The notes under the pieces were generated by a model, which saw only the letters and a list, made by a program, of their open reading frames with translations, made no database searches and was not told the origin of the DNA. From the NCBI GenBank assembly GCA_024275415.1, contig JAJRZD010000050.1, forward strand, positions 1-32,000: a DNA stretch of 32,000 nt, written 5' to 3'. The position numbers and the translations under genes were made by a program. The stretch is from an archaeon. Lineage in GTDB: Archaea; Asgardarchaeota; Thorarchaeia; Thorarchaeales; Thorarchaeaceae. Shown in pieces: positions 10,486-27,798 of the stretch; position 1 is the stretch's first letter, and every line of letters begins with the position of its first letter.

Positions 10486-11271
10486 ATGGATATTATGAGT
10501 AACGATTCAGGCTGGAACCACTTGGGGTATGGTTTCTTGCTTTATTGCCTCGCCTTTTTCATCCTCGCTATAGCATATGTGGTGGAATCTCTCAGGTTCC
10601 TTGGAGGTTTTTCAATTCTGGTTCTACTGGGAGGAGTCCTCTTTCTTTGGAAATCTAGTGGGAAGAATATCATAGATCTTGGGATGAAACGTGAGTCGCT
10701 CCGCATGGATAGGCTCATGCTTTTGTTCTTGATCGGGCTCTTGTTACCAATCCTCCTCGTAATATCTGAAGTGTTCGTTTTATTGGCGAATGCAGAGTCG
10801 GGGACTGTCCTTCCTTACGTCTTGGGATTGAGCATCGTGAAGATCATCCTTCTTGTTCTCATCGAGGAAACCATATTCAGAGGCTACTTTATCCAAGCGC
10901 TCATCGGTAAGACTGACCGAACGAAGGCGGTTATTGTTCCATCGATTCTCTGGGCAAGTCTTCATATCCCGAACATGGTTTCTTCTGGACTGTCGCTGCT
11001 CGCAATCTCTCTAGGCATAGGGTCTCTTACTGTCTTGGGAATCGCTCTGGGTGTGGCATTCCTTGGCAACATGCGGTGCATATGGTATCCGTTTGGGATC
11101 CATTTCGCGTACAATCTTGCATTCAGCATTATTTCCGCGCTCTTTGTCATCTCATATGGAGGTTCCGAGTTGCTCGTAGGTACTCGTCCATGGTACCCCG
11201 AATCCGGGATATTGGGTGTGTTATTGACGTTGGGCATTCTAGCCCTGACCTATCGCATCCGTGCCACATGA
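10486..11271 (+). CDS. CPBP family intramembrane glutamic endopeptidase (Rce1/Abi, type II CAAX protease-like)
   Basis: Polytopic hydrophobic protein with EETIFRG, WASLH and HFAYN motifs. Confidence 0.9.
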   Translation: MDIMSNDSGWNHLGYGFLLYCLAFFILAIAYVVESLRFLGGFSILVLLGGVLFLWKSSGKNIIDLGMKRESLRMDRLMLLFLIGLLLPILLVISEVFVLLANAESGTVLPYVLGLSIVKIILLVLIEETIFRGYFIQALIGKTDRTKAVIVPSILWASLHIPNMVSSGLSLLAISLGIGSLTVLGIALGVAFLGNMRCIWYPFGIHFAYNLAFSIISALFVISYGGSELLVGTRPWYPESGILGVLLTLGILALTYRIRAT

Positions 11272-11695: not shown

Positions 11696-11892
11696 TTCAT
11701 CAAAGGTTATGACCTTACAAGAATCATGTATGGTTTAGCCAAACGATAACGCCACTATCAAAAGACACCACCTCCGATCAAAAAGGGAAAAGGTATCTTT
11801 TGTACTGCCTGATACTATCATCAGGACTGATTAACGGGCATCATTGTTGGCGAGACCTCATGAACCATGTACAATTGATTATGAAGGTGTTA

Positions 11893-14250
11893 ATGATTCT
11901 CAGTAACAGAAAAACACGAACGTTACTCATCCTTGCAGTTTTTATCCTCATTCTGCTTCCACTGAGTGGAGTGATTGATAGACCTGAACAAGGACGAGTT
12001 GTGTCAGTTAACAAAGCTATGACATCAGCAGTCACCACTTACGCACCCACTCGTCTTGCTGATCCTATCTATGATACAAAGACCAGCGACTTTGTCAAAC
12101 TCACTAGGAATGTGGCAAGTAATAATGCTAGTAGTGTTGATGATATCTATTTCAGGCTTGGCACGGTCAAGATCCTAGACCCGACACTGTCCAATCTTAC
12201 GACAGCGCAGAAGGACTATTGGATTTCGCAGTTACTATCCTTCCAGAGATCCAATGGCGGATTCGGCGATTGGTACCGTGACCGAAGCAGTGTGTCAGCT
12301 ACTTATATGGCATTACAAAGTCTTCAATGGTTGGGCTATTCTGGACTTAATACCACGCTCGTCCAATCATATCTGGATCGCCTGCAAAATTCGCTTACTG
12401 ATGGGTATAACTCCTATCTTCAAGACACTGACAGCGATGTGCATGCGACATACCTTGCAGTGAAATCATACCAGCTCATTGGAAAGGCTCCCAGCAATGT
12501 CACGGCTGTCGCAGCATATCTAAAGAGAGCACAGAACCCTGACGGTGGTTTTGGTCTGCAGACCAACAATGAGAAAGGAATCTACTGGACATCCAAGGCA
12601 ACTGTCACTCAGGACGCGATTCTCGGACTTGATGTCCTATCCAGCACGGCAAACGATTCTGCAGCAGCGTTGAGTTTTGTTCAAGGACTTCAACTATTAT
12701 CCAGTGGAGGTTTTACCAATGACCCGGTTACAACAACCTCTGCATCCTCTTACTCAGCTGCAGCATTAGAAACCATATATTTCCTCGGCGGCACCCCTGC
12801 GAATGCAACATCAGCTGAGGAATACATACGTTCTCTCGAGTTGCCGGACGGGAGCTTTAAGCTGAGTCCAACAAGCGTTGACGGCTCTCTTAAAGGCACA
12901 TACTTTAGCGTTTCTGCTCTCTCACAACTTGGATCAATGCCCACCAATGTCACTGCAACATTAGAATACATCCTCAATCCCGTATATACTGACGGTTATG
13001 GAGGTGCACCTGGCGAAACCCCGACACTCCGAGAGACATTCGATGCAGTCTATGCGTTGAAACTGATGGGCGAAACCCCAGTCGATCCTCAGGGAATCAT
13101 AGACTTTGTAGCATCATATCGGAATCCCGATGGCGGTTATGGTGTATCTGGTTCTTATGCCGAGAGCACGCTGCGCGCCGTAGAGATATATAATCTGCTG
13201 GGCGAACCATTCCCGAACTCATCTCAGACCATCTCATTCCTTCAAGGGTTACAGTTGCCCAGTGGAGGGTTCGTGAAGAACCCAAATGCGACGACAGCTT
13301 ACTCCGTTTCCACATTCAGGAGTGTCCGTGCACTCGATCTATTGGGGAGTCAGCCTTCTGATATCGCTGGTGCCATCTCGTTCCTGCAAGGAATCCAGAA
13401 TAGTGACGGTGGCTTTGGAGGGTTCCTTGGTGATTCGAGTGATGTGACCAGCACATACCGTACTGTCAGAGCGTTGGACATTCTAGGTTCTGCCCCAACT
13501 GACGTTAATGCGGCAATCGACTTCATCAAAAACAGCCAGAATCCTGATGGTGGGTTCAGGAGAAGTGTACTTGATACTGCGTTGCCAAAGAACGTGTCGA
13601 ACACCATCCACACATATTCTGCTATGCGGACACTATCGATACTTGGAGCGAAACCCCTCAATATTTCAGGTGTGTACAACTACATCCTCTCTGTCCACAA
13701 CTATGATAGCGGATATGCAGAACACCCCCGGTTCACATCTGATGTGTCCTATACTTTCGTTTCGTTGTACCTAGTCAACCACTTCCATGAGTTCACTGGA
13801 TTCAGTCTATCATTGGATGACGGTCTGAACACCACACGAACCCAGTACGATAACTTCACAGTGAATCTAAGCGGTGACATGGGAAACCTGTACTACAACA
13901 TCACGAACGCGAATACCACCAACAGTGCTGTTGGGACGTTGCTTACAGCAGGTTCGGTCATCATCGACACCTCTACACTGGATAACGGGACTTACATCTA
14001 TGAGATGTCCGTCGAAGACCCGACGGGAGCCCGGATTCAGATACAGATTGAGGTGCTGATTGCTAAGTCTTCATCTACGACGACCAACACTCCAACAACG
14101 ACAACAGATACAACGACAGATACGACAACAGAAACCCCTACGACACCAGGGCTCCCATTGAACCTTGACATGACTACGATCATTATGCTCAGTCTGCTGG
14201 GTCTAGTTATCGTGTCGGTTGTAGTTGCAAGACGACGCAGGTCCAGATAG
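11893..14250 (+). CDS. Cell-surface protein with ~11 prenyltransferase/squalene-oxidase-like (alpha/alpha barrel) repeats, Ig-like domain, Thr linker and C-terminal TM
   Basis: Repeated QNxDGGFG-type motifs. Signal-like N-terminus from ATG 11893 (ORF track starts at 11800). Many sequons; TM followed by RRRRSR. Confidence 0.85.
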   Translation: MILSNRKTRTLLILAVFILILLPLSGVIDRPEQGRVVSVNKAMTSAVTTYAPTRLADPIYDTKTSDFVKLTRNVASNNASSVDDIYFRLGTVKILDPTLSNLTTAQKDYWISQLLSFQRSNGGFGDWYRDRSSVSATYMALQSLQWLGYSGLNTTLVQSYLDRLQNSLTDGYNSYLQDTDSDVHATYLAVKSYQLIGKAPSNVTAVAAYLKRAQNPDGGFGLQTNNEKGIYWTSKATVTQDAILGLDVLSSTANDSAAALSFVQGLQLLSSGGFTNDPVTTTSASSYSAAALETIYFLGGTPANATSAEEYIRSLELPDGSFKLSPTSVDGSLKGTYFSVSALSQLGSMPTNVTATLEYILNPVYTDGYGGAPGETPTLRETFDAVYALKLMGETPVDPQGIIDFVASYRNPDGGYGVSGSYAESTLRAVEIYNLLGEPFPNSSQTISFLQGLQLPSGGFVKNPNATTAYSVSTFRSVRALDLLGSQPSDIAGAISFLQGIQNSDGGFGGFLGDSSDVTSTYRTVRALDILGSAPTDVNAAIDFIKNSQNPDGGFRRSVLDTALPKNVSNTIHTYSAMRTLSILGAKPLNISGVYNYILSVHNYDSGYAEHPRFTSDVSYTFVSLYLVNHFHEFTGFSLSLDDGLNTTRTQYDNFTVNLSGDMGNLYYNITNANTTNSAVGTLLTAGSVIIDTSTLDNGTYIYEMSVEDPTGARIQIQIEVLIAKSSSTTTNTPTTTTDTTTDTTTETPTTPGLPLNLDMTTIIMLSLLGLVIVSVVVARRRRSR
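14098..14133 (+). repeat. Three imperfect 12-bp tandem repeats encoding TTTD/TTTD/TTTE
   Basis: ACGACAACAGAT ACAACGACAGAT ACGACAACAGAA within the Thr-rich linker. Confidence 0.7.
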
Positions 14251-14269
14251 TTTGAGCGGAGGATGGAGA

Positions 14270-17200
14270 ATGAGAACTCGTCGAGAGAGAATAGTGGCAG
14301 TTTCCTTACTGCTCTTCTTCTTTGGGATGACTCTCATTGCCATCCCTACTTGGACCATGAGTCATTATCAGACAGGTGTGGACGACACGGCCCTGCTGGA
14401 TGTCGGGTTCAACCGCTCTGAAGTCCGCAACAACGAAACCCTGACCCAAGGGCTGCTGTCGTTCATCGATCGCTCTCAAGATAATGGCGCTCAGAAAATT
14501 CCCTCAATGGATATGGCATTCTACATTGGGATGTCGTCATTCTTTCTTGATAATCTCTCATACACACATCCAACATCACTGTTCGAGTCATGTCTGGAGT
14601 TCATACAATCTGCTAGGAATGACGATGGTGGATATGGAAACTGGGATGGTGCCAAGAGCTCTGTGGAATCGACATATCAGGCGTTACGATTGTTGTCCGT
14701 TCGTGATAATATCGGGTCGCTTACATTGGATGAGGCAAACGCCACTCTGAGATTCATGAATGATCTGAGGACTCTTGAAGAGGGCTATCTTCCACTCCCT
14801 CTCTGGGACGCACCTGATGTTTCATCTACCTACCGAGCATCCTACATCTTTGACCTTCTGAAAAAGGAATTTCCCTCCCTTCCAATCACACTCGATAATT
14901 CTTCATTGTCATTTATTGATAGCGCATATGTGCCACCTATCTTTGCCGTAGGGGCTTCGGGTTTCTCCGAGAACGTGGGAGGGAGTGCCGAACTGCTTGC
15001 GTCCCTTTATGCGTTGAGGACGTATGTGCTATTCAATGTCACAGATTCACCTTACTTTGAGCCTATGGCGAAATTCTTGGATTCACTGGTAGCAACGAAT
15101 GGTGGTGTCGCTGGGAGACCTGGAGGATTCCCAACGACTGGATTCACCACAGCAGGAATAGAGATGTACCTGCTATTCAAGACCCGGACCGTCCTTGACA
15201 TTGATAGTTTCGTTTCACCATCCTTCATCGAGAAGGCGGTCAACTATCTTCTGGCGAACAGGGCAGCAGGCTCAGGTTTCACAGCTTCAGATAGGGACAC
15301 AACACCAGAGTACAGTTCCACTTTCTTCACCTTGCGTTCATTGGTTTTGCTCAAAGCGAACGGCTACCTCCCGACTATCCCTGACCTATCTGGAGTCGTC
15401 ACTTTCCTCTTGGACGGGATTCAGCCCTCATTCGGGTTTGGAGAGTACCCCGGTGACTCTCCAGATTTAGCAACGACTGCCTATGCCCTCTTGATAAGTA
15501 GGTATCTGAACGATTCTTCAGTGATAGATCCTGGCGTCAGCCAATATATCAAAGACTCGTACAGCCAATCGAAAGGGGGCTTTGGATTCAGGCCCGGTTC
15601 GACACCAAGGGTGAAATACACATACTACGGGATTCGAGCACTCCGAAGCTTTGGTGACCCAGTTGCTAATGTACGGGAGATTGAACAATTCATCCTCGAT
15701 TCTCAGAATCCTGAAGGAGGCTTTGGTGAGCGACCCGGCTCAAGTCTGAGCTATCTGACCCATACATACTGGGCAGTGTCAAGCCTGAAGATGTTAACTG
15801 GACTCGATGGATCACCTCTTGACGCCGAGTCAATACTTAATTGGCTGTTCTATCTCAGAAAACCGGATGGCACATATTCCAACTTCGTGGGACAAAACGG
15901 AACCCTGCGGTCAACCTATCGTGCATTGCAAGTCCTTTACATGCTTGGAGGTTCACTTTCTGAGGACGACGCACTACGCTCGACCCTTGCGTTGTTACAA
16001 ACGCCATCAGGCGGTTTCCTCCCTTCGTTTGATAAGACAGTTCCCACCATGGAATCGACCTTTTACGGGACCGCAATCTCATTATTGATTAGCGAGCCCA
16101 TCAACCCTGTCCAGATCAGGGACTTTGTGTTTTCCCTCCTCAACAAAGATGGAGGCTTTGGTCTGAGACCTGGCTTCTCAAGCAGGATCCGGTCATCATT
16201 CTATGGTCTTCTCACCCTTTTATTGCTTGAAAGGAACGAAACAGTCTTGGACGTATTGGACATCAGCGAGGATCCATTCGACGTTTATTCGCCCATCATC
16301 TATCCCGCCTTCGTCCCAAAGATTGACAATAACAAGGCGTTCCATGGCAGCTATCAGCTGACCGCAACGATTCTTGAGCCGGAAACCGATTTCGTCAGGA
16401 CATGGGTCGAGGCGAAGTGGACAGATAGGTCAACCAATGAAACAACTGAGTTCACATTTGAAGGTGAGAAGAATGGTGTGTACCAGAACGAGTGGTCGTA
16501 CCTTATGGGGACATTCAATCAGGCTGGGGTCTTGCAGTTCAGGATCCTAGCAGTCGACGACAACCAGAACTCGGTGTCCACAGAGTGGTATTTCCTACAG
16601 TCCATCGAAGCTGTGGAAGGGAACGCAGCTCCTGCTGAGGACATTATCAGTGCAGCGATGCCTTGGATCACACCCTTCTTCTTCGGGGTGGCTGCTGTTG
16701 AGGGCGTAGTATCGTACGGACGAAAACGAAACGAAAAAGAGAGTGAGATACTCATGTCGATTTCTGAAAAAGACAATGACGGAATAATGAACAGTGACAC
16801 GTTGAGCGTCATTGGAATACTGATTATAATGGGAACCATCAGCTTCCTTGCACGACTGTTCTTGCAAGACACGATATTGATTGCAGCGAACTCCATCTTT
16901 CTCTTTCGGTTCTTGCTTGGAATGATGGTAGTGCTTGTAGTGAAGTATGTTATCGGTATCAAGACCTTCGGGCTCTTCGGTCCTACTGTCATCGTTGTGT
17001 CAATGATTGCGCTTGGGCCTCTCTGGGGATTGGCAGTGTTCCTCAATATCTTCGCCGTTGGATACATGCTCAGATCATTGCTCAGTCAGTTCAATCTGGC
17101 TGTTGGGTTCAGGATTGGGATTCTGATGATTCTCACGATATCGATGATTGGACTTATGGAACTGCTTGGCGAGGTGTTCCTTATCCCTGTGCTTAGTGGT

Positions 17201-18433
17201 TCCATCCTCCTCCCAATCATCATTACGCCTTGGTACATCGACCGATTCGTTACAGAGATGCAACAATCAGACCATCTCGCAGCCCTCTCAAGGTTCGTGG
17301 TGACTCTTGGCGTATCCCTGGTCGCATATATATTCATGAGCATGGACGCTCTTGTCACATTCATCGTTGTCAACCCAGAGATATGGGTTTTGCTGACAGG
17401 GGCTGTATTGTATTTTGGGAGGAGTTCCAGATACACGAAGATGGACATGCAGCGGTTTCGAAGGCTCTTTGCCAAGCATGAGGAGCCCTTGTCCATGCAA
17501 ATTCGGAACCGTGATTACATCGCCAAGTACAACTCTCACATCCTCTATCCACTAATCAACAAGTATGATATGAAAGAACAGTTCGAGAAATGGCGTGTGC
17601 CTAGTGCCGAACTACTTGCCCTTGTGAACGATGAGGAACGCCTCTCGGCATTGATGATACGGCTTAAGACCGAGGAACAGTTCAGAAAAGGCTTTGTCAT
17701 CAAGCCTGCCCGGAGCTACGGAGGAAAGGGAATTATCGTTGTAGAGGGTAGGACTGCGGAAGGCAACTTTGTGATTGGTGGGGAAATCTATGCTCCCATC
17801 GCGATAGAAACCGAGATCCGTAAGATATTGCAAGGAGAGTACCTCACGAGCCAGACACTTGGCGACAAGGACATCGTGATCATCGAAGAGAGGATCATCA
17901 ATCATCCGAAACTTGCCAAGATATCGTTCGGGCTTCCTGATGTCCGCGTGATTGTCTTTCGGGGAATCCCGGTGATGGCAATGATGCGATTGGCGACGAA
18001 GGAAAGCCAAGGAAAGGCGAACCTCAAGCAGGGTGCCATCGGTGCAGCCGTTCGCTTGTCGGATGGGGTCATCTACCGTGCTGAGATCAAAGGCACCGAG
18101 GTCGAAAGGCATCCTGATACAGGGGAGCGGATTATCGGGTTCGCATTTGAGAATTGGCAAGAGATTCTTGCTATTGCATGTTTGGCACAGAAGAGCAGCG
18201 GGTTGGGCTATGCCGGTGTTGATATTGTCATAGATGAGAACGACCGTGTACTCTTGCTTGAAATCAACAAGCGACCGGGACTAGAGATACAGAACGTCAA
18301 CCAGCATAGTCTATTGCAGCGACTGGAACTCATCGAAGAACGAGATCTGGATGCCACCGAACGGTCACCCATCAGTGCTGCCCAACTTGGTATACAACTG
18401 GCAATGGACTATTGGGAAAAGGAGGCTGTATAG
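14270..18433 (+). CDS. Fusion: N-terminal TM + ~12 prenyltransferase-like repeats + Ig-like domain + 7TM_transglut-type membrane domain + RimK-related (alpha-L-glutamate-ligase-like) ATP-grasp
   Basis: QNPEGGFG-type repeats; VVKYVIGIKTFGLFGP (7TM_transglut signature). ATP-grasp motifs IRNRDYI, FVIKPARSYGGKGI, PDVRVIV, GKANLKQGAIG, GVDIV and LLEINKRPGLEIQ. Likely start ATG 14270 after GGAGG. Confidence 0.9.
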   Translation: MRTRRERIVAVSLLLFFFGMTLIAIPTWTMSHYQTGVDDTALLDVGFNRSEVRNNETLTQGLLSFIDRSQDNGAQKIPSMDMAFYIGMSSFFLDNLSYTHPTSLFESCLEFIQSARNDDGGYGNWDGAKSSVESTYQALRLLSVRDNIGSLTLDEANATLRFMNDLRTLEEGYLPLPLWDAPDVSSTYRASYIFDLLKKEFPSLPITLDNSSLSFIDSAYVPPIFAVGASGFSENVGGSAELLASLYALRTYVLFNVTDSPYFEPMAKFLDSLVATNGGVAGRPGGFPTTGFTTAGIEMYLLFKTRTVLDIDSFVSPSFIEKAVNYLLANRAAGSGFTASDRDTTPEYSSTFFTLRSLVLLKANGYLPTIPDLSGVVTFLLDGIQPSFGFGEYPGDSPDLATTAYALLISRYLNDSSVIDPGVSQYIKDSYSQSKGGFGFRPGSTPRVKYTYYGIRALRSFGDPVANVREIEQFILDSQNPEGGFGERPGSSLSYLTHTYWAVSSLKMLTGLDGSPLDAESILNWLFYLRKPDGTYSNFVGQNGTLRSTYRALQVLYMLGGSLSEDDALRSTLALLQTPSGGFLPSFDKTVPTMESTFYGTAISLLISEPINPVQIRDFVFSLLNKDGGFGLRPGFSSRIRSSFYGLLTLLLLERNETVLDVLDISEDPFDVYSPIIYPAFVPKIDNNKAFHGSYQLTATILEPETDFVRTWVEAKWTDRSTNETTEFTFEGEKNGVYQNEWSYLMGTFNQAGVLQFRILAVDDNQNSVSTEWYFLQSIEAVEGNAAPAEDIISAAMPWITPFFFGVAAVEGVVSYGRKRNEKESEILMSISEKDNDGIMNSDTLSVIGILIIMGTISFLARLFLQDTILIAANSIFLFRFLLGMMVVLVVKYVIGIKTFGLFGPTVIVVSMIALGPLWGLAVFLNIFAVGYMLRSLLSQFNLAVGFRIGILMILTISMIGLMELLGEVFLIPVLSGSILLPIIITPWYIDRFVTEMQQSDHLAALSRFVVTLGVSLVAYIFMSMDALVTFIVVNPEIWVLLTGAVLYFGRSSRYTKMDMQRFRRLFAKHEEPLSMQIRNRDYIAKYNSHILYPLINKYDMKEQFEKWRVPSAELLALVNDEERLSALMIRLKTEEQFRKGFVIKPARSYGGKGIIVVEGRTAEGNFVIGGEIYAPIAIETEIRKILQGEYLTSQTLGDKDIVIIEERIINHPKLAKISFGLPDVRVIVFRGIPVMAMMRLATKESQGKANLKQGAIGAAVRLSDGVIYRAEIKGTEVERHPDTGERIIGFAFENWQEILAIACLAQKSSGLGYAGVDIVIDENDRVLLLEINKRPGLEIQNVNQHSLLQRLELIEERDLDATERSPISAAQLGIQLAMDYWEKEAV

Positions 18434-18434
18434 A

Positions 18435-19595
18435 ATGAAACACACTCAGAAGTCACGCCGCAACCTTAAGAAAGGAGTTGTCGTAGTCACACTCTCAGCA
18501 CTCGTCATGGCAGGGATTGTGTTGCCAGTCGTGATGATTTACTCAGCAGAGATGGAAGAAACTGTAAGAGGATTCGCAGAGTTCCAGCTCACGTACAGGT
18601 ACTATTTGAAGAACGAGGGGCCTTTGAATCTTACCTCAGTTTCAATTCGGTTGGCACTACTGAAGGACTGGGCTCCTATACAAACAGTGTCCAACTTGAC
18701 CATCATGACGCCCCCGAACCAGACAATCACAGACGAGTATGAGAACCAGTTTGCATGGTACGAGTATCAGGACTTCAACGTGAACCAGACCATAGACCTA
18801 GTGTTCAAGGCGAACCTTACCCTCAACTTCATAGACTACACCTCCGCAACACTGGACATAGCCGACTATAACGAGTCGTCCGACCTCTACAAGCTCTACA
18901 TGGCATTCAATCCGCTGGAAGACAGCACGGATCCGAACATAAGGAACGTCGCTCAATCACTTGAGGTTCCTGATGATCTGCTGGGAACTGCATTCAATAT
19001 CTACAATTTCACATCGCATTATTTGAAGTACAAGCTGTATAGCACCGTGCGAGGGGCATCATACGCTATCAGGAACGCGAATGGCGACTGTGACGAGTAC
19101 ACGACACTCTTCATCGCATTGTCAAGGGCTGTAGGTATCCCTGCTATTGGACATACTGCATGGCTTGCAGACTTTGCACCAGGCTTTGTGACCTCTGACG
19201 ATGGAGCTGTCGCACATGCTTATCCGATGTTCTATGTTGCAGGGGTTGGGATGTTACCAGCAGACCCGACTCGTGGGGCGACAAGCACTTTCGACAATTG
19301 GTTGAAGACTGACGCAAAGCGAATAACATTGACACGAGGTCCTGACAAGCCGTACAGGCTCCTTAGATACAGGTGGATACCTGTGGAGGGCATCGAAGGC
19401 CCCACCATTTTCAGCAATTACACGGTTTCTGTCCAAGACATGAGGATTGAGTACACCTCGAACCTCAGACAGGTCGTCATACTATCGCTTGCTGGGATCC
19501 CGAGCCTATTCATGGTCTATAGTGGGGTCAAGGGCTATCAGGCAAGAAAACAACGCAAACGCAAGCTGGAGTCGTTGCTCGACCCAGAGAGGTAG
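18435..19595 (+). CDS. Membrane-anchored transglutaminase-like protein with intact Cys-His-Asp triad
   Basis: GDCDEYTTLF, HAYP and ADPT motifs; TM helices at both termini. Start ATG 18435 is 1 nt after the upstream stop, with GGAGG upstream. Confidence 0.9.
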   Translation: MKHTQKSRRNLKKGVVVVTLSALVMAGIVLPVVMIYSAEMEETVRGFAEFQLTYRYYLKNEGPLNLTSVSIRLALLKDWAPIQTVSNLTIMTPPNQTITDEYENQFAWYEYQDFNVNQTIDLVFKANLTLNFIDYTSATLDIADYNESSDLYKLYMAFNPLEDSTDPNIRNVAQSLEVPDDLLGTAFNIYNFTSHYLKYKLYSTVRGASYAIRNANGDCDEYTTLFIALSRAVGIPAIGHTAWLADFAPGFVTSDDGAVAHAYPMFYVAGVGMLPADPTRGATSTFDNWLKTDAKRITLTRGPDKPYRLLRYRWIPVEGIEGPTIFSNYTVSVQDMRIEYTSNLRQVVILSLAGIPSLFMVYSGVKGYQARKQRKRKLESLLDPER

Positions 19596-20114: not shown

Positions 20115-21941
20115 CTATTCTCTCCGTTTCCTGCACACGAGTATTACCAGCAACATGATTGCAAACCCTCCAACACCTGCCGCGACATACAACCAGAATG
20201 TGTAGTCTTCCGGCAGTGACGCACCCACCATGTTGGAGTCGTAGATGGTATCCCCGCTTGTTGTGACACGCACCTTGAAGAAGTAGGTCTTGCCACCTTG
20301 CAGTCCTGAAATCACAGTGGAGGTCGTTGACATGTCCGTGATGGTTTGATAGAGTGTCCCCAGCTCATTAGGCTGTTCTGACACATAGACCTCATAAGAC
20401 GCGAAATCGCCTTTTTCGTTATTGAACCGCGTCCACTCGATTTCTACGGACGAACCTGAGAGGATTGCCGGAGCGTTTAGGTACACGCCTATCTCGGCAA
20501 CTGTGATTCCCGACGAGTCTAATGTGACAGTGAAGATATCGTCTTGGCCTGGCTCGGTTTCGCCAATCACCTCTTCAGTAATCAATTGGCCATCAACAAC
20601 TCTATTTGCCTCCATCTTGTACTCCCCTGTTCCCGTCCCAGTCAGGTTAATTGTGTATGGCAAACCTGGCGCGAACGGAAACAGCATATGCTTTTCACCA
20701 TCGTCTTCAACTGCAATGGCTGGAAATTCGAGGCTTGGAACTCCGTCATCACCGATGGCGATAGTACGACCCAGTGGGTCTGTCACTTGGATATCTACCG
20801 GGCTGAATATCCCGAGACCCAGAAGCTTGGGAAGAAGATCCATCAATGCAGTGATGATGCTGTTGTACTCGCCTGTAGAAGGGTAGTACGACAATCTTGT
20901 GAACTGCGATTGATCATAACCAGGCCCATACGGGAATCGGTGTGTCCCTTTAAAGTTTCCATCGGCATCAATGAGAATCCAGTCATCGTATTTGGTCCAA
21001 GACTCGTTGTAAAGGACATTGTTGTCGTAGATATACAGGGTAATCGAGCCATTCGAGTTTACATCGTAATCATACACATCGACAAAATGGCTCTCGGTTG
21101 GTTCAGATACTTCCCAAACTGGAGCCATTAGCAAAATGACCTGTGGCGAGTAGAATGGTGTCCCAACCATCATTGCATCCATCAACTTCTGGACTTCTTG
21201 CGCGTTGGATATTCCGCCTTGAGGCGTAGGGATACCCAGATATATCTTGACCCAGTTTAGGAGATGGTTCGGGTTAAAGAATGCTCCGGATCCTTTCCAT
21301 AAGACGTACTCCTTGATTGCAGCTTCAGTGACATCACCGCCAGTTTGCTCGGCTATCGTCGTGTTTGGATTTGGTCGAGGGAGTGCAAATGCATAGTCTC
21401 GACCTAGGGGAACCTTGTTCGGGTCAAGGAAATAATCTCTTGATGCCTGTGCGAATCCGTTGCAGAAGCCTGCGAATTCCATATCCATCCAGTCAACAAT
21501 AAGCGAGTCGAACACACGGAATAACATGATGTCCAAGATGCTTACTTCGCAAGCGGCTTCGATGTCCGAATAGAGGAGCTGGAATATGTAGTTGCGGAGA
21601 TTTGCATTGACCTCTTCAGGCTCCATCACGAAATCGCCGAAAAACGAGCCACTATTCGTGAAGTTGAAGGTATGTCGCCAATCGAATGGCACTACCATAT
21701 CAGCAGGAAGGAACTTCTGCTTGATGTGTCCTTTCTCCCATGCTTCAGCCATTCCAACGCTCATATCACGTTTGGTAGTCAGTTGCCATGCGTCTATGAA
21801 CTCAAGCAATCGTGCTCTGATCTCCTCGGAGTCCAATGATGAGGGATGACTTACAGGCAAGGGTGCCATGAATGCCATCCACGTAATTCCAAACACGATT
21901 GCCAAACAAACAATGTACTTCGTATTCTTTTTCATGATCAT
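20115..21941 (-). CDS. Membrane-anchored surface protein: putative papain-fold (Cys-His-Asp) domain, SPVD-type beta-domain, fibronectin type III domain and C-terminal TM
   Basis: N-terminal signal/TM; GFCNGFA, SHFV and YIYDNN; FSPVDIQVTDPLGR. FN3 pattern IEWT..FASYEVY..ISGLQGGKTYFFKVRV; TM followed by RKRRE. Confidence 0.7.
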   Translation of the reverse strand: MIMKKNTKYIVCLAIVFGITWMAFMAPLPVSHPSSLDSEEIRARLLEFIDAWQLTTKRDMSVGMAEAWEKGHIKQKFLPADMVVPFDWRHTFNFTNSGSFFGDFVMEPEEVNANLRNYIFQLLYSDIEAACEVSILDIMLFRVFDSLIVDWMDMEFAGFCNGFAQASRDYFLDPNKVPLGRDYAFALPRPNPNTTIAEQTGGDVTEAAIKEYVLWKGSGAFFNPNHLLNWVKIYLGIPTPQGGISNAQEVQKLMDAMMVGTPFYSPQVILLMAPVWEVSEPTESHFVDVYDYDVNSNGSITLYIYDNNVLYNESWTKYDDWILIDADGNFKGTHRFPYGPGYDQSQFTRLSYYPSTGEYNSIITALMDLLPKLLGLGIFSPVDIQVTDPLGRTIAIGDDGVPSLEFPAIAVEDDGEKHMLFPFAPGLPYTINLTGTGTGEYKMEANRVVDGQLITEEVIGETEPGQDDIFTVTLDSSGITVAEIGVYLNAPAILSGSSVEIEWTRFNNEKGDFASYEVYVSEQPNELGTLYQTITDMSTTSTVISGLQGGKTYFFKVRVTTSGDTIYDSNMVGASLPEDYTFWLYVAAGVGGFAIMLLVILVCRKRRE

Positions 21942-21948
21942 TTCCCTC

Positions 21949-24900
21949 CTAAAATATACTTACCCTCCTTAATGTGCGCAACTCGTTTTCTTTCATTGAG
22001 AACTGTGCCATCACAGGACACAGGATGTCCGGATGTTCCGGATTCACGATAGCCCCGGTGCCACTTGCCATGCTGAAAGCAGGACTTGTGGCAATAGCCG
22101 AAGAGTTCACTATCCATTCAAAGGCATAGAGATATCCTTTGAGGGCAGTCGCTAGGATCTCTTTCCGGTCGTTCAAGTTAGAATCGCCGATGCGGATGTC
22201 TGTGATGTTCTCATGCATCTCGCCGCTGGTCCACACCACATCATAGATATGATATGCCCTGTCTTTTGTCTGGTTCTGTTCGAACACCATCAAGTTCTTT
22301 CCAGTGCCTACGATGATATCAAACCAACTGTCACCGTCTGTATTCTCGACCTGTATCGCATTGACCTTCTCTGCGGTCGTCAAGAAATTCATCTCATTGA
22401 GGGTGCTGGAAGCGTCCATCTCATAGATCACAACTCCTCCGCCAGTGCCCACAAAAATCTCGGGATACTGGTTGCCGTCATTGTCGGCCAGTGCGACACG
22501 ATATGCCGCGAACTGCGGTTTCACCGTGTCAAATGTGATGTATGTGTTGTCATGGACAGTGCCATTCGAGAACACTTCGACTGTGACCAGTCGCACCCAT
22601 CCCGTCTGTTGTGTGAGGAACCCTCCATCATAGATGTCTTCAGTTCCGACAATTACGATGTCTTGGAAGCCATCATTGTCCACATCACCTGTCTTGATGT
22701 CGTGGATGCGCGGATATCCATCTTCGAGTGTAGTATATTTGATTGTCGTTACCAGTTCATAGCTGTCATCGCCGGTGTTCTCGAAGATGTACAGATATTC
22801 ATTGACGCCAACCACTATCTCAGAGAACCCGTCCCTATCGAGATCCTTGTCCACTGTGACAATGCTCGGTTCCATGTAGACCCAATAACCGCCACCTAGA
22901 TGTGTAATGTCGAACTTCCAATACTTGAACTCTGTACTCCAGACAGGTTCGTACTGATCATTACCGACCATTTCGAAGACATAGATATTGTACCCGGCAC
23001 AAACAATGATCTCCTGCTTACCGTCTTGATCCTGGTCTCCTATGACCATGTCCTTCACATCCAGCCTGAACGGGTATACACCGCTTGAGAAATAGTTGTA
23101 GAGGAGGAAATCTGGTGAGCGCCAAGATCTCCGATAGGTGTCATTGGCGACCTGCTCGAAGGCGATGATGTTGTTGTCAAAAGAGCCAACAAACACCTCG
23201 GGCTTGCCGTCTTGGTCAACGTCACCATATTCAATCGATTGTGACCAACGTTCGAAACTCCGCCAATTTGTCCAAGAGTCAAATGCTTCGTAACCCCAGT
23301 ATCCATACGTTTGACTACGCTTGTCGACCTCTACCATGTGAATGTAGGGGTATGTAGCGACAAGGAATGTGTCATGTTGTATCGTTCCGTTGAACATATC
23401 GATCGAGTCCTCTTTTAGTGCCACAAGATCAACTACACCATCTCCCGTTAGGTCGATGAACTGTGGATAATCATATCCATGGTCAGGGTCAGTCAATGTG
23501 CCAGTGAAATCAGGCTCGAACATTGCTCTTGTTTTTGTCCATTCGGGAGCCTGCCTACTTCCGGTGTTCTTCCAGTAGGTAAACCTCCCAGTGGAACATT
23601 TGTAACCTCTGGCAGTGTAGTTCTCGCTTGCATTTGGGACTACGATGTCAAGGTCATTGTCAAGATCAAAATCCCAGAATGTCACCTTGCCGAATACGGT
23701 TTCATTCTTCTTATCTGCATTGATGGTTTCGAAGAATGATGCGTCTAAGGTGTAGTGGAATTGGATGCCATAGCTGTATCCTGTTCGTTCGAAGTAATAC
23801 AGCTGGTCAGTCGCTACTACAAGGTCCGTATCGCCGTCATTGTCATAGTCCACCATGGTGACACGCGGGACGAAGTTTCCTGTCGTAACAACAGTGGATA
23901 GGTCTGTCAAGTAGCCAACCTGCTCAGTCCAGTAGTCAACAGATGTCTGTTCGAAATACCGTACTGTGTATATATAGCCGGTATCAACGTCAATCCCCGC
24001 AGTGGTGATGATCATGTCGTCATCAGCATCGCCGTCCATATCACCAAAAGTTACTGTTGCGTAATTGTAGAGAGTACCGTTGGCAAGATCACTATGTGTT
24101 ACAAAATAGTTTGCCACATATGAAAAGACTGGGTTCTCATCGGTTCCAGTATTCCTGTAGTACAACAACTTTGCCTGTGCGCCATCGAGAATTATCGCAA
24201 CAAGGTCGTAGGCGCTGGTGCCATCAATATCAACAAGAGCATACGAAAGGAATGACGAGAATGATGGGAATTCGGTCTGGACATCAGTGTTGGTGAGAAG
24301 CGAGCCACTTTCGACCCAAGTGGGTATCATGCCCTTGCCCCACACCTGCACTATGTCCCAAATCGATGCTCCAAGAGAGAATCGCGGTTGGTCTGATTGG
24401 CTCTCCCAGTATCGGACACCATTAGCACCATATGCCATGATCTCGCCGTCGACAGTTCCGATTATGATCTTCAGGATGCCGTCCTGAGTACTAGAAGTTC
24501 TTACGTAGCCCGTGGACACTGTCAGGGCGGTATCAATTGGCCGGGCGACTGTCCCATACGCAGCATCGATATTATAGATGGCTCCTCCTTTAACTCCAAT
24601 CCTCAAGTACCTGAATTCGTCCCAACGGGCAGCTCGTAAAGCATGATCCACATCTACGGACAAGAACCCAGTCCAGCCCAAGAAAAAGTTGATGTATATA
24701 TAATTCGTGTACTGTTCAGTCAGTTGTAGAGGCTCCCATGTTTTCATGTCTCTAGAGATTGCAAGCTCCATATTCTCGATGCTAATATCATCTTCTATTA
24801 TGATAAGCAAGTCTGTTTTATCAGTTGCGTCCCCGCCGAGTTCTTCCCATTGTCCGAAGTCCACAACAGCAGTAGACACATTGTTTAGGGTTGTATATGG

Positions 24901-27798
24901 ATGGAGCATAAGCAGCTTCTTGCTCGTTTGATCGGCTATCACGAAACTATCATTTGCAGCCAGATACTCGATACCCCATGATGATGCCACTCCCACTCTT
25001 TCAAAGTAGTTGGCAACCTCGTCGTCAAATGTATCGACAAGGATTCCCTCTGGTGAGATTTTCTTGATTGTGTGTGCCGGGCCTCCTGTACCGTACAAGT
25101 ATCCTTGTGCATCGAATGCGATGAATGGCGTATCATCTGGCACAGACCATGCGTCTATGACAGTCCCGTTCTGATAGAACCTTTGAATCCTGAAGTTGTA
25201 TCTATCAGAAACATAGAGCAACCCATCAGGTCCGATCTCCAAGCCGTAAGGAGTGTTGAACTGCCCCAAGGACGAGCCGGCGCTTCCGATGTGTCGGACA
25301 AACCCTGCACTCTTGTTGAAGACAGATATACGATGGTTATAGAATTCACTAACAAAGTATAGATCACCCTGAACGACCACATCGATTGGTCCATTGAGTT
25401 CTCCGTTGCCAGTGCCTGTTCCTCCGAGAGTGGCTTGCAAATTGCCTGCGACATCAAAGAGATACAATTTATCGTTAGTTGCATCAGTCACATAGACGAT
25501 ATCATCATCTACTGCAATCCCAAACAGCCATGAGGAAGGAACGCTCCAGTTCAGGAGAAGCGTGCCGTCTGGGGAGTATTTGAGAACATATGCAGACACT
25601 CCAGTCACGTAGTAATTGCCTTCTGAATCGAACGCTATATCTAATGGTGTGCTCAAGACATTCGTATCGATAGCATGTGTGTCGACCAGTTCATATTCCT
25701 GAATAGCAAATTTCTGAACTCGATTAGTTGAGGAATCAGTAACGAGAATGCCGTCATTGGTTACACAGATGCCTATGGGGTCAACGAACTGCCCAGGGCC
25801 TGAGCCAGAACTGCCCCATTCGGATTCGAAGTTGCCACTGGGGCTGAACTTCTGCACACGATGATTGTATATGTCTGTGACGTAGATACGCCCGTCTCCA
25901 TCTACTGCAATATCGACAGGCCCGTTCATATCTCCGGGCGCGCTCCCAGTTGTCCCCCATGTCCTTATGAATGTCCCATTAGGATAGAACTGTTGAACAC
26001 GGTCATTCGTATAGTCCGCGACCAACAGGTTACCATAGGCGTCCACTGCAAGACCCGCAGGTAGGTTGAACTCGCCGGACGCAGATCCAGAGGCACCCCA
26101 TTTGTTGATGAAAGCGCCGGTGCTCTTGTTCAGAACCTGAATCCTGTTGTTGAAGTAGTCCGAAACAAATAGCAACCCATCTGGGGACACTGCCACACCA
26201 AAGGGATGATAGAATTCACCATCACCTGTCCCACTAGTACCAAAACTAGCCACAAAGATGCCTTCCGCAGTGAATTTCTGGACTCGGTCGTTCTCGTAGT
26301 CTGTGACATAGACAAATCCGTCCGTGTCTATAGCAATACCCGTGGGCATCGAGAAATTACCTGTTTCGTTCCCGGTCATTCCCCATGATTGTATCGGTTC
26401 GAAATCATCATCGTACCGCACAACTCGATTATTGAGGATATCAGTCATATAGATTGAGCCATCAAGTCCCATTGCTATGTCATACAGCATCTTTGCTTGG
26501 TCAAGCCCTGTTCCTGTGGTGAACTCCCATTCTCTCATGAATTGGAACTGTTCTGTACTATCAAAGGTCGTTTCTTGGTCGTCCCACGGACCACCCAGTG
26601 CAGATGCGCCCCCGAGATATTCGGTGTCCCATGGGGCAGGAATCGGGTCGTTCTCGTAGATCCCTTGTGCTTCCCAACCGAACACCTTTTTGTCAATCCA
26701 CTCGTCGGCTTCATAACCCGTATAGACCCCAGTAGTTTCTGAAAGTCCTCTCTCCCAGCTCTTGATGCCTTGATTGAGCTTGCGCACATCGAAGTCCTCG
26801 GTTTCACTATTGTAATCGAAGACAAATACACCTTGACCGTATGCAGAGGCGACGATTTCTCCATAGCCATCCTCATCAAGGTTCTGACTGGCAGTCACTG
26901 AGGTCACAGGTGCCCATATTGTATCACCACTGTTCCACCGTGGAACATAGAAGTTCTTCCTGCACGGGCATTCCTCGAAAAGATACACCTTGGAATCATA
27001 GCTCCCTGCGACAATCTCGACCAACGAGTCATTGTCACTGTCAACGATTGCAATAGAAGATACCCTGTCCGTGATAGTATCGCCAGAGTCCCAGACAGGC
27101 TCGAACTCTAGCCAGTGTTCATCCAGACAGTAGGGATAGGCTGAACTGTCGATGTAGTCAAACACGTATATTTTCCCATCCCAAGCGCCAGCTATTATCT
27201 CGTCATGGCTGTCATGGTCAATGTCATATGCTAAGACAGACCACACTTGTCTGTCTATATACATTCCACTATCCCAGACAAGCTCCCATGGAGATGGAGT
27301 TGAAGATGGTGTGAATGGGTCATCGGCATTTCCAATCTGTTCGAACACGTAGATACGACCATCTGCGCTTCCAGCCACGACTTCGAGCTTGCCATTATTA
27401 TTGGCGTCCATGAAATCAACATCCATGACATCACCTTGGATTACGCCGTCCCCGGCATCCCATACCGGATAATACTGACGCATCTCGTCATACCATCGGA
27501 AGATGTGAACCTCTCTGTCGTTGAGGTATCCACCAGCTGATGCCATCCATTCCTGGTCCTCAGTGACCGCAATGGCATGAGTGGAGCCTCTAACATTGTT
27601 AGGCTCCCATATCTTCTGGTACTCGTTCGTGAGGTTGAAATCGGTGTTCATCTGGTTCGTAATCGAGTCCACAAGGCCGTCGGAATGGTTTGGCGATTCT
27701 AGTGCCAGACCCTGTTCATTGAGCATGGCTGGCATAAGTGATACCAGCATCAGGGCAATGAAGCCCAATGATATCAGTTTGAGTGTCGCATGTTTCAT
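21949..27798 (-). CDS. 1949-aa secreted protein with FG-GAP/VCBS repeats and NHL-repeat propellers
   Basis: Signal peptide [21 protein letters not shown]. Many DxDxDxxxEIxxG blades; NHL units such as [25 protein letters not shown]. No C-terminal TM. Confidence 0.9.

What the first reader, a model, noticed from the sequence alone, without database searches (positions are those of the whole stretch)
11893..19595. Candidate transmembrane peptide-ligation and surface cross-linking system: barrel-7TM-ATP-grasp fusion with an active transglutaminase
Seen: three tightly spaced co-directional genes (gaps 19 and 1 nt). The middle protein joins sequon-rich alpha/alpha barrels, a 7TM_transglut-type domain and a RimK-related ATP-grasp; I see no sequons in the ATP-grasp part, consistent with outside/inside topology. 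Known: in bacteria this ATP-grasp (TIGR02291-type) and 7TM_transglut are usually separate genes, the 7TM is fused to an inactive transglutaminase, and a peptidase is linked. Here ligase and 7TM are fused, barrels replace the inactive transglutaminase, and a separate enzyme keeps Cys-His-Asp. Inference: a cytoplasmic ligase makes a (glutamyl) peptide, the 7TM exports or relays it, and the extracellular transglutaminase attaches or cross-links it on surface proteins, giving a covalent coat in an archaeon.
Basis: partly seen in the sequence, partly recalled or inferred. Interest (0 to 1): 0.85.

Follow-up and report, generated by a model that had tools for sequence, protein, structure and literature searches.

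The report
Asgard trans-membrane peptide-ligase and transglutaminase operon
Three tightly linked genes, conserved as a unit in scattered Asgard archaea, join a cytoplasmic RimK-like amino-acid ligase through a membrane domain to extracellular helical barrels and an intact transglutaminase-fold enzyme; this is an undescribed archaeal version of the poorly understood bacterial Rlo envelope system.

Summary
A (11893-14250), B (14270-18433) and C (18435-19595) are co-directional, with gaps of 19 and 1 nt. Pfam confirms that A is a double alpha/alpha toroid, B is toroids + 7TM_transglut + ATP-grasp, and C is a transglutaminase core with Cys219-His261-Asp277.

The same A-B-C trio, with unrelated flanks, occurs in eight other Asgard loci (labelled Thor-, Odin- and Heimdallarchaeota). 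It is patchy: 17 of 400 genomes of the phylum, none of six same-genus genomes. A Micrarchaeota locus carries an unfused version.

The system is a variant of the bacterial RloB/RloC system, whose biochemistry is unknown. The 7TM-ligase fusion is not unique: all 8 archaeal loci sampled and 4 bacterial loci have it.

RloA-type secreted peptidases sit in 58 of 68 unfused bacterial loci and in none of 19 fused loci. Fused loci carry an intact transglutaminase or an external subtilase, or nothing.

No product, export or activity is shown.

The scan had noted a similar fusion in another genome. I class this as a new variant of a known kind.

The parts
11893..14250 (+). Gene A, 785 aa: N-terminal signal/anchor, two non-catalytic alpha/alpha toroids (about 12097-13767), a beta-rich part, a Thr-rich stalk, a C-terminal TM (14152-14238) and a basic tail. 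It has 17 sequons and no Cys.
   Evidence: Pfam PF00432 E 2e-54; toroid hits; TM segments and sequons; no DxDD, DDxxD, CGEQ or Cys; paralogue of the N-terminal part of B, 24% identity over 577 aa, E 8e-26.
14270..18433 (+). Gene B, 1387 aa: anchor, double toroid, spacer, 9 membrane segments and an ATP-grasp ligase in one frame.
   Evidence: Orthologues of 1347-1431 aa in other Asgard genomes.
14285..14362 (+). B N-terminal membrane anchor (residues 6-31), preceded by MRTRRER on the cytoplasmic side.
   Evidence: Hydropathy.
14450..16310 (+). B extracellular double alpha/alpha toroid (about residues 60-680), carrying all 10 sequons of B together with the spacer.
   Evidence: PF00432; sequons.
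16643..16705 (+). B extra TM helix after the barrels (residues 792-812), followed by a Lys/Arg-rich cytoplasmic loop.
   Evidence: Hydropathy.
16793..17425 (+). B conserved membrane core (residues 842-1052, PF14402). It has 8 segments, two of them broken helices. Conserved intramembrane motifs are TFGxFxP (16964-16984), Arg in GFRIG (17105-17119), ITPW (17222-17233) and NPE (17372-17386).
   Evidence: Pfam; AlphaFold2 pLDDT 93.3; invariant columns; coordinates.
17489..18400 (+). B cytoplasmic ATP-grasp ligase (residues 1074-1377). It keeps the ATP-binding Lys (FVIKP, 17693-17707) and the Mg ligands Asp (GVDIVID, 18215-18235) and Glu/Asn (LLEINKRPG, 18254-18280).
   Evidence: PF14397 and TIGR02291; invariant columns; profile match to RimK E 1.5e-14; fold matches to ArgX/LysX, RimK, Ddl and CphA.
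18435..19595 (+). Gene C, 386 aa: N-terminal TM (18465-18557), a beta-rich sequon-bearing domain, a transglutaminase core (18951-19268), a C-terminal TM (19473-19529) and a conserved cytoplasmic tail motif KLExLLxP (19563-19586).
   Evidence: PF01841; TM segments; family alignments.
19089..19265 (+). Catalytic triad codons of C: Cys219 (19089-19091), His261 (19215-19217) and Asp277 (19263-19265).
   Evidence: Invariant in 41 clusters; codons checked.

Best explanation
The three genes form one conserved envelope module of Asgard archaea. It is an archaeal variant of the bacterial RloB/RloC system (7TM_transglut membrane protein plus RimK-like ATP-grasp ligase).

Shown:
- B is one chain with two extracellular, non-catalytic alpha/alpha toroids, nine membrane segments, and a catalytically intact cytoplasmic ligase predicted to pack on the membrane core.
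- A is a paralogous, membrane-anchored double-toroid glycoprotein.
- C is a membrane-tethered extracellular transglutaminase-fold enzyme with an invariant Cys-His-Asp triad.

Inferred mechanism:
1. The ligase spends ATP in the cytoplasm to build or extend a short amino-acid chain, probably acidic as in RimK, on an acceptor.
2. The fused membrane core passes or presents that chain at the outer face.
3. Outside, where there is no ATP, C attacks the amide bonds through an acyl-enzyme and trims or releases the product. This is the job done by the secreted retropepsin RloA in bacteria and by an external subtilase in Bathyarchaeota fusions.
4. The toroids of A and B hold the substrate or frame the site.

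I rate cleavage or trimming by C as somewhat more likely than cross-linking.
For: Module:
- The same A-B-C order and tight spacing occur in nine Asgard loci whose flanks differ.
- A Micrarchaeota locus has a toroid protein, a 7TM-ATP-grasp protein and a transglutaminase-like gene in the same order, with the toroid not fused.

Family:
- PF14402 and PF14397 score over their cut-offs, and the RloB and TIGR02291 models match.
- The C family aligns with the outside module of bacterial transglutaminase-7TM proteins (hhalign 98.2%, E 5e-14, 253 columns).

Topology:
- Lys/Arg-rich loops all lie on one side.
- Sequons: 72 in 4791 outside residues against 3 in 1860 ligase residues.

Competence:
- The ligase Lys, Asp, Glu and Asn are invariant in 42 sequences.
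- The nearest solved relatives are RimK, cyanophycin synthetase, TTLL and ArgX/LysX, all of which extend carboxylates of peptides or proteins.
- The triad of C is invariant in 41 clusters.

Coupling: the AlphaFold2 model of the core plus ligase has pLDDT 92.3 and pTM 0.88.

Peptidase role outside:
- RloA-like genes occur in 58 of 68 unfused bacterial loci whose transglutaminase module has lost the triad, and in 0 of 19 fused loci.
- No PF05618 was found in this genome, which is 92.9% complete.
- Henriciella-type triple fusions keep Cys-His-Asp and lack RloA.
- Bathyarchaeota fusions place an S8 peptidase after an extra TM, so outside the cell.

Literature:
- Loss of rloB or rloC rescues the defects of mutants lacking the three secreted RloA proteases (PMC11957051).
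- Prokaryotic transglutaminase-like domains in ATP-grasp operons have been predicted to be peptidases that reverse ligated tags (PMC3495828).
Against: - No product, acceptor or export step is shown for any member of the family.
- The membrane core has no significant match to a solved transporter (best Foldseek E 1.0). It shows only a weak likeness to RnfA/E and NqrD/E (Z 7.2, below the level trusted for helical bundles).
- Haloarchaeal 7TM-ligase proteins have no evident outside partner, so an outside enzyme is not obligatory.
- The complementary pattern of peptidases rests on related genomes, and a single RloA query was used.
- A Cys-His-Asp acyl-enzyme can transfer as well as hydrolyse, so sequence alone cannot separate trimming from cross-linking.
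- The Pseudomonas genetics also fit a signalling model.
- TIGR02291 scores below its curated cut-off.
Confidence: 0.35

Rival explanations
1. The ligase makes a (glutamyl) peptide, the membrane domain exports it, and C acts as a true transglutaminase. C attaches or cross-links the peptide on surface proteins such as A and B, giving a covalent coat. The logic is that a bond made inside with ATP is spent outside, as with D-Ala-D-Ala and transpeptidases.
For: - Architecture, topology and intact catalytic residues are as in the best explanation.
- C is tethered at the outer face next to two sequon-rich surface proteins encoded in the same operon.
- Transglutaminases have been postulated as the outside cross-linkers of archaeal pseudomurein (PMC10117817).
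- The strong conservation of C (at least 49% identity across Thor-, Odin- and Heimdall-labelled genomes) shows selection on an active enzyme.
Against: - In the other variants the outside position is held by a retropepsin or a subtilase. A retropepsin forms no acyl-enzyme, so the shared activity is more likely hydrolysis.
- A transglutaminase needs Gln as acyl donor, while the nearest characterised ligase, RimK, makes alpha-linked poly-Glu.
- The Micrarchaeota counterpart has Ser in place of the catalytic Cys.
- The module is patchy and missing from all six same-genus genomes, which is odd for a basic wall component.
- No isopeptide or coat data exist.
Confidence: 0.2
2. Outside-in signalling. 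The toroids (in bacteria the dead transglutaminase module) bind an extracellular ligand. The polytopic domain transmits this, and the ATP-grasp is a cytoplasmic output that modifies a cytoplasmic target, as RimK modifies ribosomal protein S6. C, like RloA in bacteria, makes or destroys the ligand outside.
For: - The outside modules vary (dead transglutaminase, toroids, PKD, none) on a constant core-plus-ligase, as in receptors.
- No transporter-like fold was found for the core.
- The ligase is predicted to pack rigidly on the core.
- Inactive transglutaminase-like domains are thought to bind peptides (PMC3495828).
- The rloA/rloBC epistasis fits over-activation of a receptor as well as it fits a toxic exported product (PMC11957051).
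- C has a conserved cytoplasmic tail motif that could meet the ligase.
Against: - The core has broken helices and conserved intramembrane Gly, Pro, Arg and Glu residues, which is more typical of a conduit than of a signal relay.
- Short haloarchaeal forms have no sensor domain.
- No cytoplasmic target gene is linked to the module.
Confidence: 0.2
3. Glycan or lipid-carrier modification. The ATP-grasp (Pfam name 'sugar-transfer associated') amidates an acidic sugar on an isoprenoid-linked glycan with an amino acid at the inner face. The toroids bind the isoprenoid-linked or glycan product outside. C acts as an amidase or transamidase on it.
For: - PF14397 is the best Pfam match.
- Toroids of this superfamily bind isoprenoids in the enzymes that define the family.
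- All three proteins are sequon-rich surface proteins.
Against: - No glycosyltransferase, flippase or sugar-nucleotide gene is linked in any of the nine loci.
- The nearest solved relatives of the ligase act on peptides and proteins.
- The toroids lack all catalytic and metal-binding motifs.
Confidence: 0.1

Closest known systems
rloABC operon of Pseudomonas aeruginosa: RloB (inactive transglutaminase + 7TM), RloC (ATP-grasp), RloA (secreted retropepsin); PMC11957051
   Same: - Same membrane-domain family (PF14402; the RloB model matches B over residues 882-1066).
- Same ATP-grasp family (PF14397/TIGR02291).
- Same order, membrane part then ligase.
- A transglutaminase-fold module outside.
- Envelope-related role.
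   Different: - Here the membrane domain and ligase are fused.
- The outside module on the membrane protein is a double toroid.
- The transglutaminase is a separate gene and keeps Cys-His-Asp.
- There is a second toroid protein.
- No RloA-type peptidase is found in the locus or the genome.
- In a tree of the ligase domain, the fused forms are separated from 68 unfused RloC by a branch with 100/100 support.
- The biochemistry of Rlo itself is unknown.
RimK/RimB (poly-alpha-L-glutamate ligase and its aspartic peptidase)
   Same: - Nearest solved relative of the ligase by profile (E 1.5e-14) and by fold.
- Shares the logic of a ligase paired with an enzyme that cuts its product.
   Different: - RimK is soluble and acts on ribosomal protein S6.
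- TIGR00768 scores 25.6 bits against a cut-off of 143.
- RimK has no membrane domain and no outside components.
Bacterial triple fusions: transglutaminase-7TM-ATP-grasp (Henriciella and others), with a periplasmic TPR partner
   Same: - Fused core and ligase, with an outside transglutaminase module that keeps Cys-His-Asp.
- No RloA, and an outside helical-repeat partner.
- Same side of the ligase tree.
   Different: - The transglutaminase is fused N-terminally rather than encoded separately.
- The helical partner is TPR, not toroid.
- These fusions are bacterial and also uncharacterised.
PgsBCA/CapBCA poly-gamma-glutamate synthesis with CapD anchoring
   Same: The concept of a membrane-coupled amide ligase making an acidic polymer that an outside transferase attaches to the wall (my own knowledge of the system).
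   Different: - The ligase fold differs (my own knowledge).
- The 7TM core shows no profile similarity to CapC/PgsC (hhalign probability 0.06%).
- Only weak hints exist: AFDB rank 14, E 0.6, TM 0.41, and 1 of 32 members at Pfam E 0.69.
ATP-grasp + alpha-E + transglutaminase-like peptide-tagging operons (Iyer et al. 2009, as cited in PMC3495828)
   Same: Pairs an ATP-grasp peptide ligase with a transglutaminase-like domain that is predicted to act as a peptidase reversing the tag.
   Different: - That system is cytoplasmic and has no 7TM or toroids.
- The Iyer 2009 paper itself was not available to read.

Membership tests
Rlo-type system (RloB/RloC) | 7TM_transglut membrane domain (PF14402) | tested here: met
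   76.5 bits against a cut-off of 25, residues 882-1066. AFDB cluster hits to family members from E 3e-7.
Rlo-type system (RloB/RloC) | TIGR02291/PF14397 ATP-grasp ligase next to the membrane protein | tested here: met
   PF14397 scores 187 bits against a cut-off of 31.4. TIGR02291 scores 223.5 bits, below its equivalog cut-off of 314.2. Here the ligase is fused rather than adjacent.
Rlo-type system (RloB/RloC) | Inactive transglutaminase module fused N-terminally to the 7TM (full-length RloB, NF052267) | tested here: not met
   NF052267 scores 47.3 bits against a cut-off of 900 and covers only the 7TM part. The N-terminal part of B is a double toroid.
Rlo-type system (RloB/RloC) | Secreted retropepsin RloA (PF05618) in the operon | tested here: not met
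   No PF05618 match in the own genome, which is 92.9% complete. No RloA-like hit in any of 19 fused loci, against 58 of 68 unfused bacterial loci.
RimK family alpha-L-glutamate ligases | ATP-grasp fold with the ATP-binding Lys and the Asp/Glu/Asn Mg ligands | tested here: met
   Invariant K, D, E and N columns. Aligned to the RimK motifs. Fold matches.
RimK family alpha-L-glutamate ligases | Family model TIGR00768 over its cut-off | tested here: not met
   25.6 bits against a cut-off of 143.4.
RimK family alpha-L-glutamate ligases | Glutamate as the added residue | not testable with these tools
   Needs an enzyme assay.
Transglutaminase-like superfamily, catalytically competent members | PF01841 core with a Cys-His-Asp triad | tested here: met
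   41.3 bits against a cut-off of 23. C219, H261 and D277 are invariant in 41 clusters.
Transglutaminase-like superfamily, catalytically competent members | Transamidase (cross-linking) rather than hydrolase activity | not testable with these tools
   Sequence does not separate the two. No solved relative by sequence.
Prenyltransferase / terpene cyclase enzymes | Alpha/alpha toroid repeats (PF00432) | tested here: met
   A E 2e-54, B E 3e-37.
Prenyltransferase / terpene cyclase enzymes | Catalytic motifs (DxDD, DDxxD, Zn-binding Cys) or the thioester CGEQ of TED domains | tested here: not met
   None present. A has no Cys, and the B ectodomain has one.
PgsC/CapC membrane component of poly-gamma-glutamate synthetase | Sequence-profile homology of the membrane core to PF14102/CapC | tested here: not met
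   hhalign probability 0.2% against CapC alone and 0.06% against a 15-sequence CapC/PgsC profile of low diversity. 1 of 32 members matches at Pfam E 0.69.
PgsC/CapC membrane component of poly-gamma-glutamate synthetase | Shared fold | tested here: inconclusive
   A CapC-named AFDB entry is the first hit outside the family: E 0.6, TM 0.41, rmsd 7.4. This is no better than the RnfE/NqrD hits.

The most novel reading that the evidence does not exclude
Asgard archaea that carry this operon build a covalently cross-linked protein layer by a two-compartment route. The membrane-fused ATP-grasp makes an activated peptide donor inside the cell. The extracellular Cys-His-Asp transglutaminase then spends that bond to join the toroid glycoproteins A and B (or other surface proteins) into a wall. 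This would be an archaeal, protein-based counterpart of D-Ala-D-Ala synthesis followed by transpeptidation. It would also reveal what the whole Rlo family does.
Probability: 0.15. Interest if true: 0.85.

Novelty: new variant of a known kind. Interest (0 to 1): 0.6.

Why it matters
The Rlo system matters for envelope integrity, antibiotic tolerance and biofilm formation in Pseudomonas, yet nobody knows what RloB and RloC make.

The archaeal variants add comparative constraints:
- The ligase and membrane core form one unit.
- An outside amide-bond enzyme of any catalytic class (aspartic, serine or cysteine) goes with it.
- Where the transglutaminase module keeps its triad, the separate peptidase is missing.

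That narrows the mechanism and gives testable enzymes.

For Asgard archaea, whose surface biology is almost unknown and bears on models of eukaryote origins, this is a conserved, probably glycosylated, three-protein surface machine with two intact enzymes. The ectodomains and the ligase domain could be expressed and assayed directly.

Tried and rejected
- Complex prediction of B (residues 785-1387, as P0002:800-1402) with full-length C gave no verdict (score 0.10, mark 0.32). It is neither support nor evidence against binding.
- PgsC/CapC kinship of the membrane core: profile comparisons were negative and the hints were weak.
- Fold search of the membrane core alone: no PDB match with E <= 0.001. 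The RnfA/E and NqrD/E likeness (Z 7.2) is below what can be trusted for helical bundles.
- Single-sequence searches of the ligase and of C against solved structures found nothing. The C-family profile also found nothing significant.
- Iyer et al. 2009 (PMC3268129), the paper that defined these domains, is not held, so I could not check whether it already lists the toroid fusion. Makarova et al. 2015 on archaeal membrane proteins does not mention these domains. A search for Asgard + transglutaminase + ATP-grasp found only an unrelated pseudomurein paper.
- Flanking genes (amino-acid kinase, Rce1-like protease, RidA, fn3 protein) are not conserved next to the trio elsewhere, so I left them out of the module.
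- The sigma-70 promoter and terminator scan gave no more sites than shuffles and does not apply to archaea.
- I considered the thioester (TED) idea for the toroids and rejected it: no CGEQ, and almost no Cys.

Full report
**Observation**

The + strand between 11800 and 19595 holds three long frames.
- GGAGG motifs lie at 14258 and 18421, just before the starts of B and C. The gaps are 19 and 1 nt.
- Pfam gives for A the prenyltransferase-type alpha/alpha toroid (E 2e-54).
- Pfam gives for B the toroid (3e-37), 7TM_transglut (3e-21, residues 882-1066) and ATPgrasp_ST (5.5e-55, residues 1079-1356).
- Pfam gives for C Transglut_core (2e-10, residues 173-278).
- NCBIfam adds TIGR02291 (223.5 bits, under its cut-off of 314). 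It also adds the RloB model, which matches only over its 7TM part.

**Topology**

- B starts with MRTRRER and a hydrophobic anchor.
- After the barrels comes one helix (792-812), then a Lys/Arg-rich loop, then eight more membrane segments, then the ligase.
- All Lys/Arg-rich loops fall on the ligase side, and the loops on the other side are very short.
- All 10 sequons of B lie before residue 723.
- In six orthologues there are 72 sequons in 4791 outside residues against 3 in 1860 ligase residues.
- A has a signal/anchor, 17 sequons, no Cys, a Thr-rich stalk and a C-terminal anchor with a basic tail.
- C has a TM at each end and 8 sequons.

**Is the trio a unit?**

- A search of 40 relatives found the core-plus-ligase in three genomes. 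In all three the same A-B-C order is kept, with other neighbours (PEP-utilising enzyme, PLP enzyme, ClpB).
- A scan of one genome per species added loci labelled Thorarchaeota and Heimdallarchaeota.
- Look-ups starting from C-family proteins gave three more trios, in genomes labelled Odin- and Heimdallarchaeota.
- That makes nine Asgard loci. None shares the window's flanking genes.
- In 400 genomes of the phylum, 17 have the protein (6 of 90 high-quality genomes), spread over five families. None of six same-genus genomes has it. The module is therefore conserved but patchy.
- A Micrarchaeota locus has a toroid protein, then a 7TM-ATP-grasp protein without barrels, then a transglutaminase-like gene whose catalytic Cys is Ser.
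- A and the N-terminal part of B are paralogues (24% identity over 577 aa, E 8e-26). B therefore looks like a toroid gene fused onto a 7TM-ligase gene.

**The wider family**

A profile-free search of 1.8 billion representatives, using the core plus ligase as query, found 1882 relatives. Sampled architectures were:
- toroid-7TM-ligase (about eight clusters of 1350-1430 aa);
- 7TM-ligase alone (520-580 aa);
- transglutaminase-7TM-ligase (about 800-830 aa), one of them with added TPR repeats;
- 7TM-ligase-subtilase;
- ligase-MATCAP without a membrane part.

Among 80 genomic loci:
- All 8 archaeal loci and 4 bacterial loci are fused.
- 68 bacterial loci have separate rloB and rloC genes.
- The unfused bacterial RloB proteins have lost the triad. 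The four bacterial triple fusions (Henriciella and a Pseudomonadota genome) keep Cys-His-Asp.
- In a maximum-likelihood tree of the ligase domain, all fused forms lie apart from the 68 unfused ones across a branch with 100/100 support. The Asgard forms are a 100/100 clade (midpoint root only).

**The enzymes**

- The ligase keeps the ATP-binding Lys, the Gly-rich loop and the Asp/Glu/Asn Mg ligands in all 42 aligned sequences.
- Its nearest solved relatives by profile are RimK (1.5e-14), cyanophycin synthetase (6e-9) and TTLL polyglutamylases. By fold they are ArgX/LysX, RimK, Ddl and CphA. Apart from Ddl, these add amino acids to carboxylates of peptides or proteins.
- The core-plus-ligase model is confident (pLDDT 92.3, pTM 0.88). 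The core alone also models well (pLDDT 93.3).
- The core has broken helices and conserved Gly, Pro, Arg and Glu inside the membrane. It has no significant solved relative. The RnfA/E-NqrD/E likeness is weak.
- C belongs to a tight family of 41 clusters, all at least 49% identical to it. Every cluster that carries a source name bears an Asgard label except one labelled Methanobacteriota. After these, identity drops to 26%.
- Cys219, His261 and Asp277 are invariant in that family.
- The C family aligns with the outside module of the bacterial transglutaminase-7TM proteins from the first TM through the core (hhalign 98.2%, E 5e-14). C is therefore the split-off counterpart of that module.
- The toroids have none of the catalytic motifs of prenyltransferases, cyclases or thioester domains. 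I read them as binding modules.

**What is known**

- The bacterial operon was named rloABC in 2025. Its products are RloA (a secreted retropepsin-like protease), RloB (inactive transglutaminase + 7TM) and RloC (cytoplasmic ATP-grasp).
- Mutants lacking the three RloA proteases fail under hypo-osmotic stress and have biofilm, antibiotic and shape defects. Deleting rloB or rloC rescues them. The biochemical activities are unknown (PMC11957051).
- Transposon hits in the same genes affect vesicle production in Shewanella (PMC12096838), and they appeared in a suppressor screen linked to exopolysaccharide levels in P. aeruginosa flagellar mutants (PMC7314104).
- Zhang and Aravind wrote that transglutaminase-like domains in prokaryotic ATP-grasp operons are predicted peptidases that reverse ligated tags (PMC3495828).
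- Transglutaminases have been postulated as cross-linkers of pseudomurein (PMC10117817).
- I found no paper on the toroid fusion or on the Asgard trio. The founding paper on these domains was not readable here.

**Mechanism**

The most telling comparative result is who sits outside.
- An RloA-like gene is present in 58 of 68 unfused bacterial loci and in none of 19 fused loci. This genome has no PF05618 match.
- The fused forms instead have one of three arrangements:
  - a transglutaminase with an intact triad (Asgard, Henriciella type);
  - a subtilase placed outside by an extra TM after the ligase (Bathyarchaeota);
  - no evident partner (haloarchaea).
- Helical-repeat partners are also outside: toroids in archaea, and TPR with a TM or signal in the Henriciella type.
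- An aspartic, a serine and a cysteine enzyme in the same position suggests that the shared outside activity is cleavage of an amide bond.
- I therefore favour this route: ligation inside, hand-over by the core, and trimming or release outside by C, with the toroids as holders (confidence 0.35).
- A signalling reading, with an outside sensor and an inside ligase output, fits the Pseudomonas epistasis equally well. It also fits the lack of a transporter-like fold (0.2).
- A glycan-amidation reading has little support because no sugar genes are linked (0.1).

**Limits**

- No product, acceptor, export step or activity is shown.
- The peptidase pattern rests on related genomes and on one RloA query.
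- The complex prediction gave no verdict.

**Verdict**

- This is a new variant of a known but mechanistically unsolved kind of system, conserved in Asgard archaea.
- It has clear enzyme assays that would decide between the readings.

Noticed in passing
window 19563-19586 (C residues 377-384) and the C family (alignment A8): After its C-terminal TM, C carries a conserved cytoplasmic tail motif, roughly K-L-E-x-L-L-S/N/D-P, in nearly all 41 family clusters. It could dock on the cytoplasmic ligase of B or be its acceptor.
   Followed up: partly
L023:5004-7859 (Bathyarchaeota) and P0027: A single protein joins the 7TM core, the ATP-grasp, an extra TM helix and an S8 subtilase, which places the peptidase outside the cell. 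A PmbA/TldD-type peptidase gene and an Ig/cadherin-domain gene lie just upstream.
   Followed up: partly
L047:5999-10325, L053, L039 (Henriciella and a Pseudomonadota genome); P0053: Bacterial triple fusions of transglutaminase, 7TM and ATP-grasp keep Cys-His-Asp. They are followed, with overlapping start, by a TPR protein with an N-terminal TM or signal. In P0053 the TPR part is fused on after an extra TM.
   Followed up: partly
L012:8584-9666 (Micrarchaeota): The transglutaminase-like partner has Ser at the position of the catalytic Cys, while His and Asp are kept.
   Followed up: no
P0075 and similar 785-800 aa proteins: The same ATP-grasp family is fused to a MATCAP-type (tyrosine carboxypeptidase-like) domain without any membrane part. 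This is another ligase-plus-peptidase pairing.
   Followed up: no
window 10486-11271 (+): An Rce1-like CPBP intramembrane protease gene lies 620 nt upstream of A on the same strand. It is not found next to the trio in other loci.
   Followed up: yes
window 20115-27798 (-): Large surface-protein genes lie just downstream on the other strand: a 608-aa fn3-domain protein and a 1949-aa NHL/FG-GAP repeat protein. The region is rich in envelope proteins.
   Followed up: no
G105:C102:3750-5369 and G112:C445:1893-3506 (same phylum): Two Asgard genomes carry core-plus-ligase frames of only 568 and 546 aa (57% and 37% identity). Barrel-less forms may therefore also exist in the phylum, unless the contigs are cut.
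   Followed up: no
window 11881-11895: An in-frame ATG four codons upstream (ATGAAGGTGTTAATG) is an alternative start for A. It does not change the reading.
   Followed up: no
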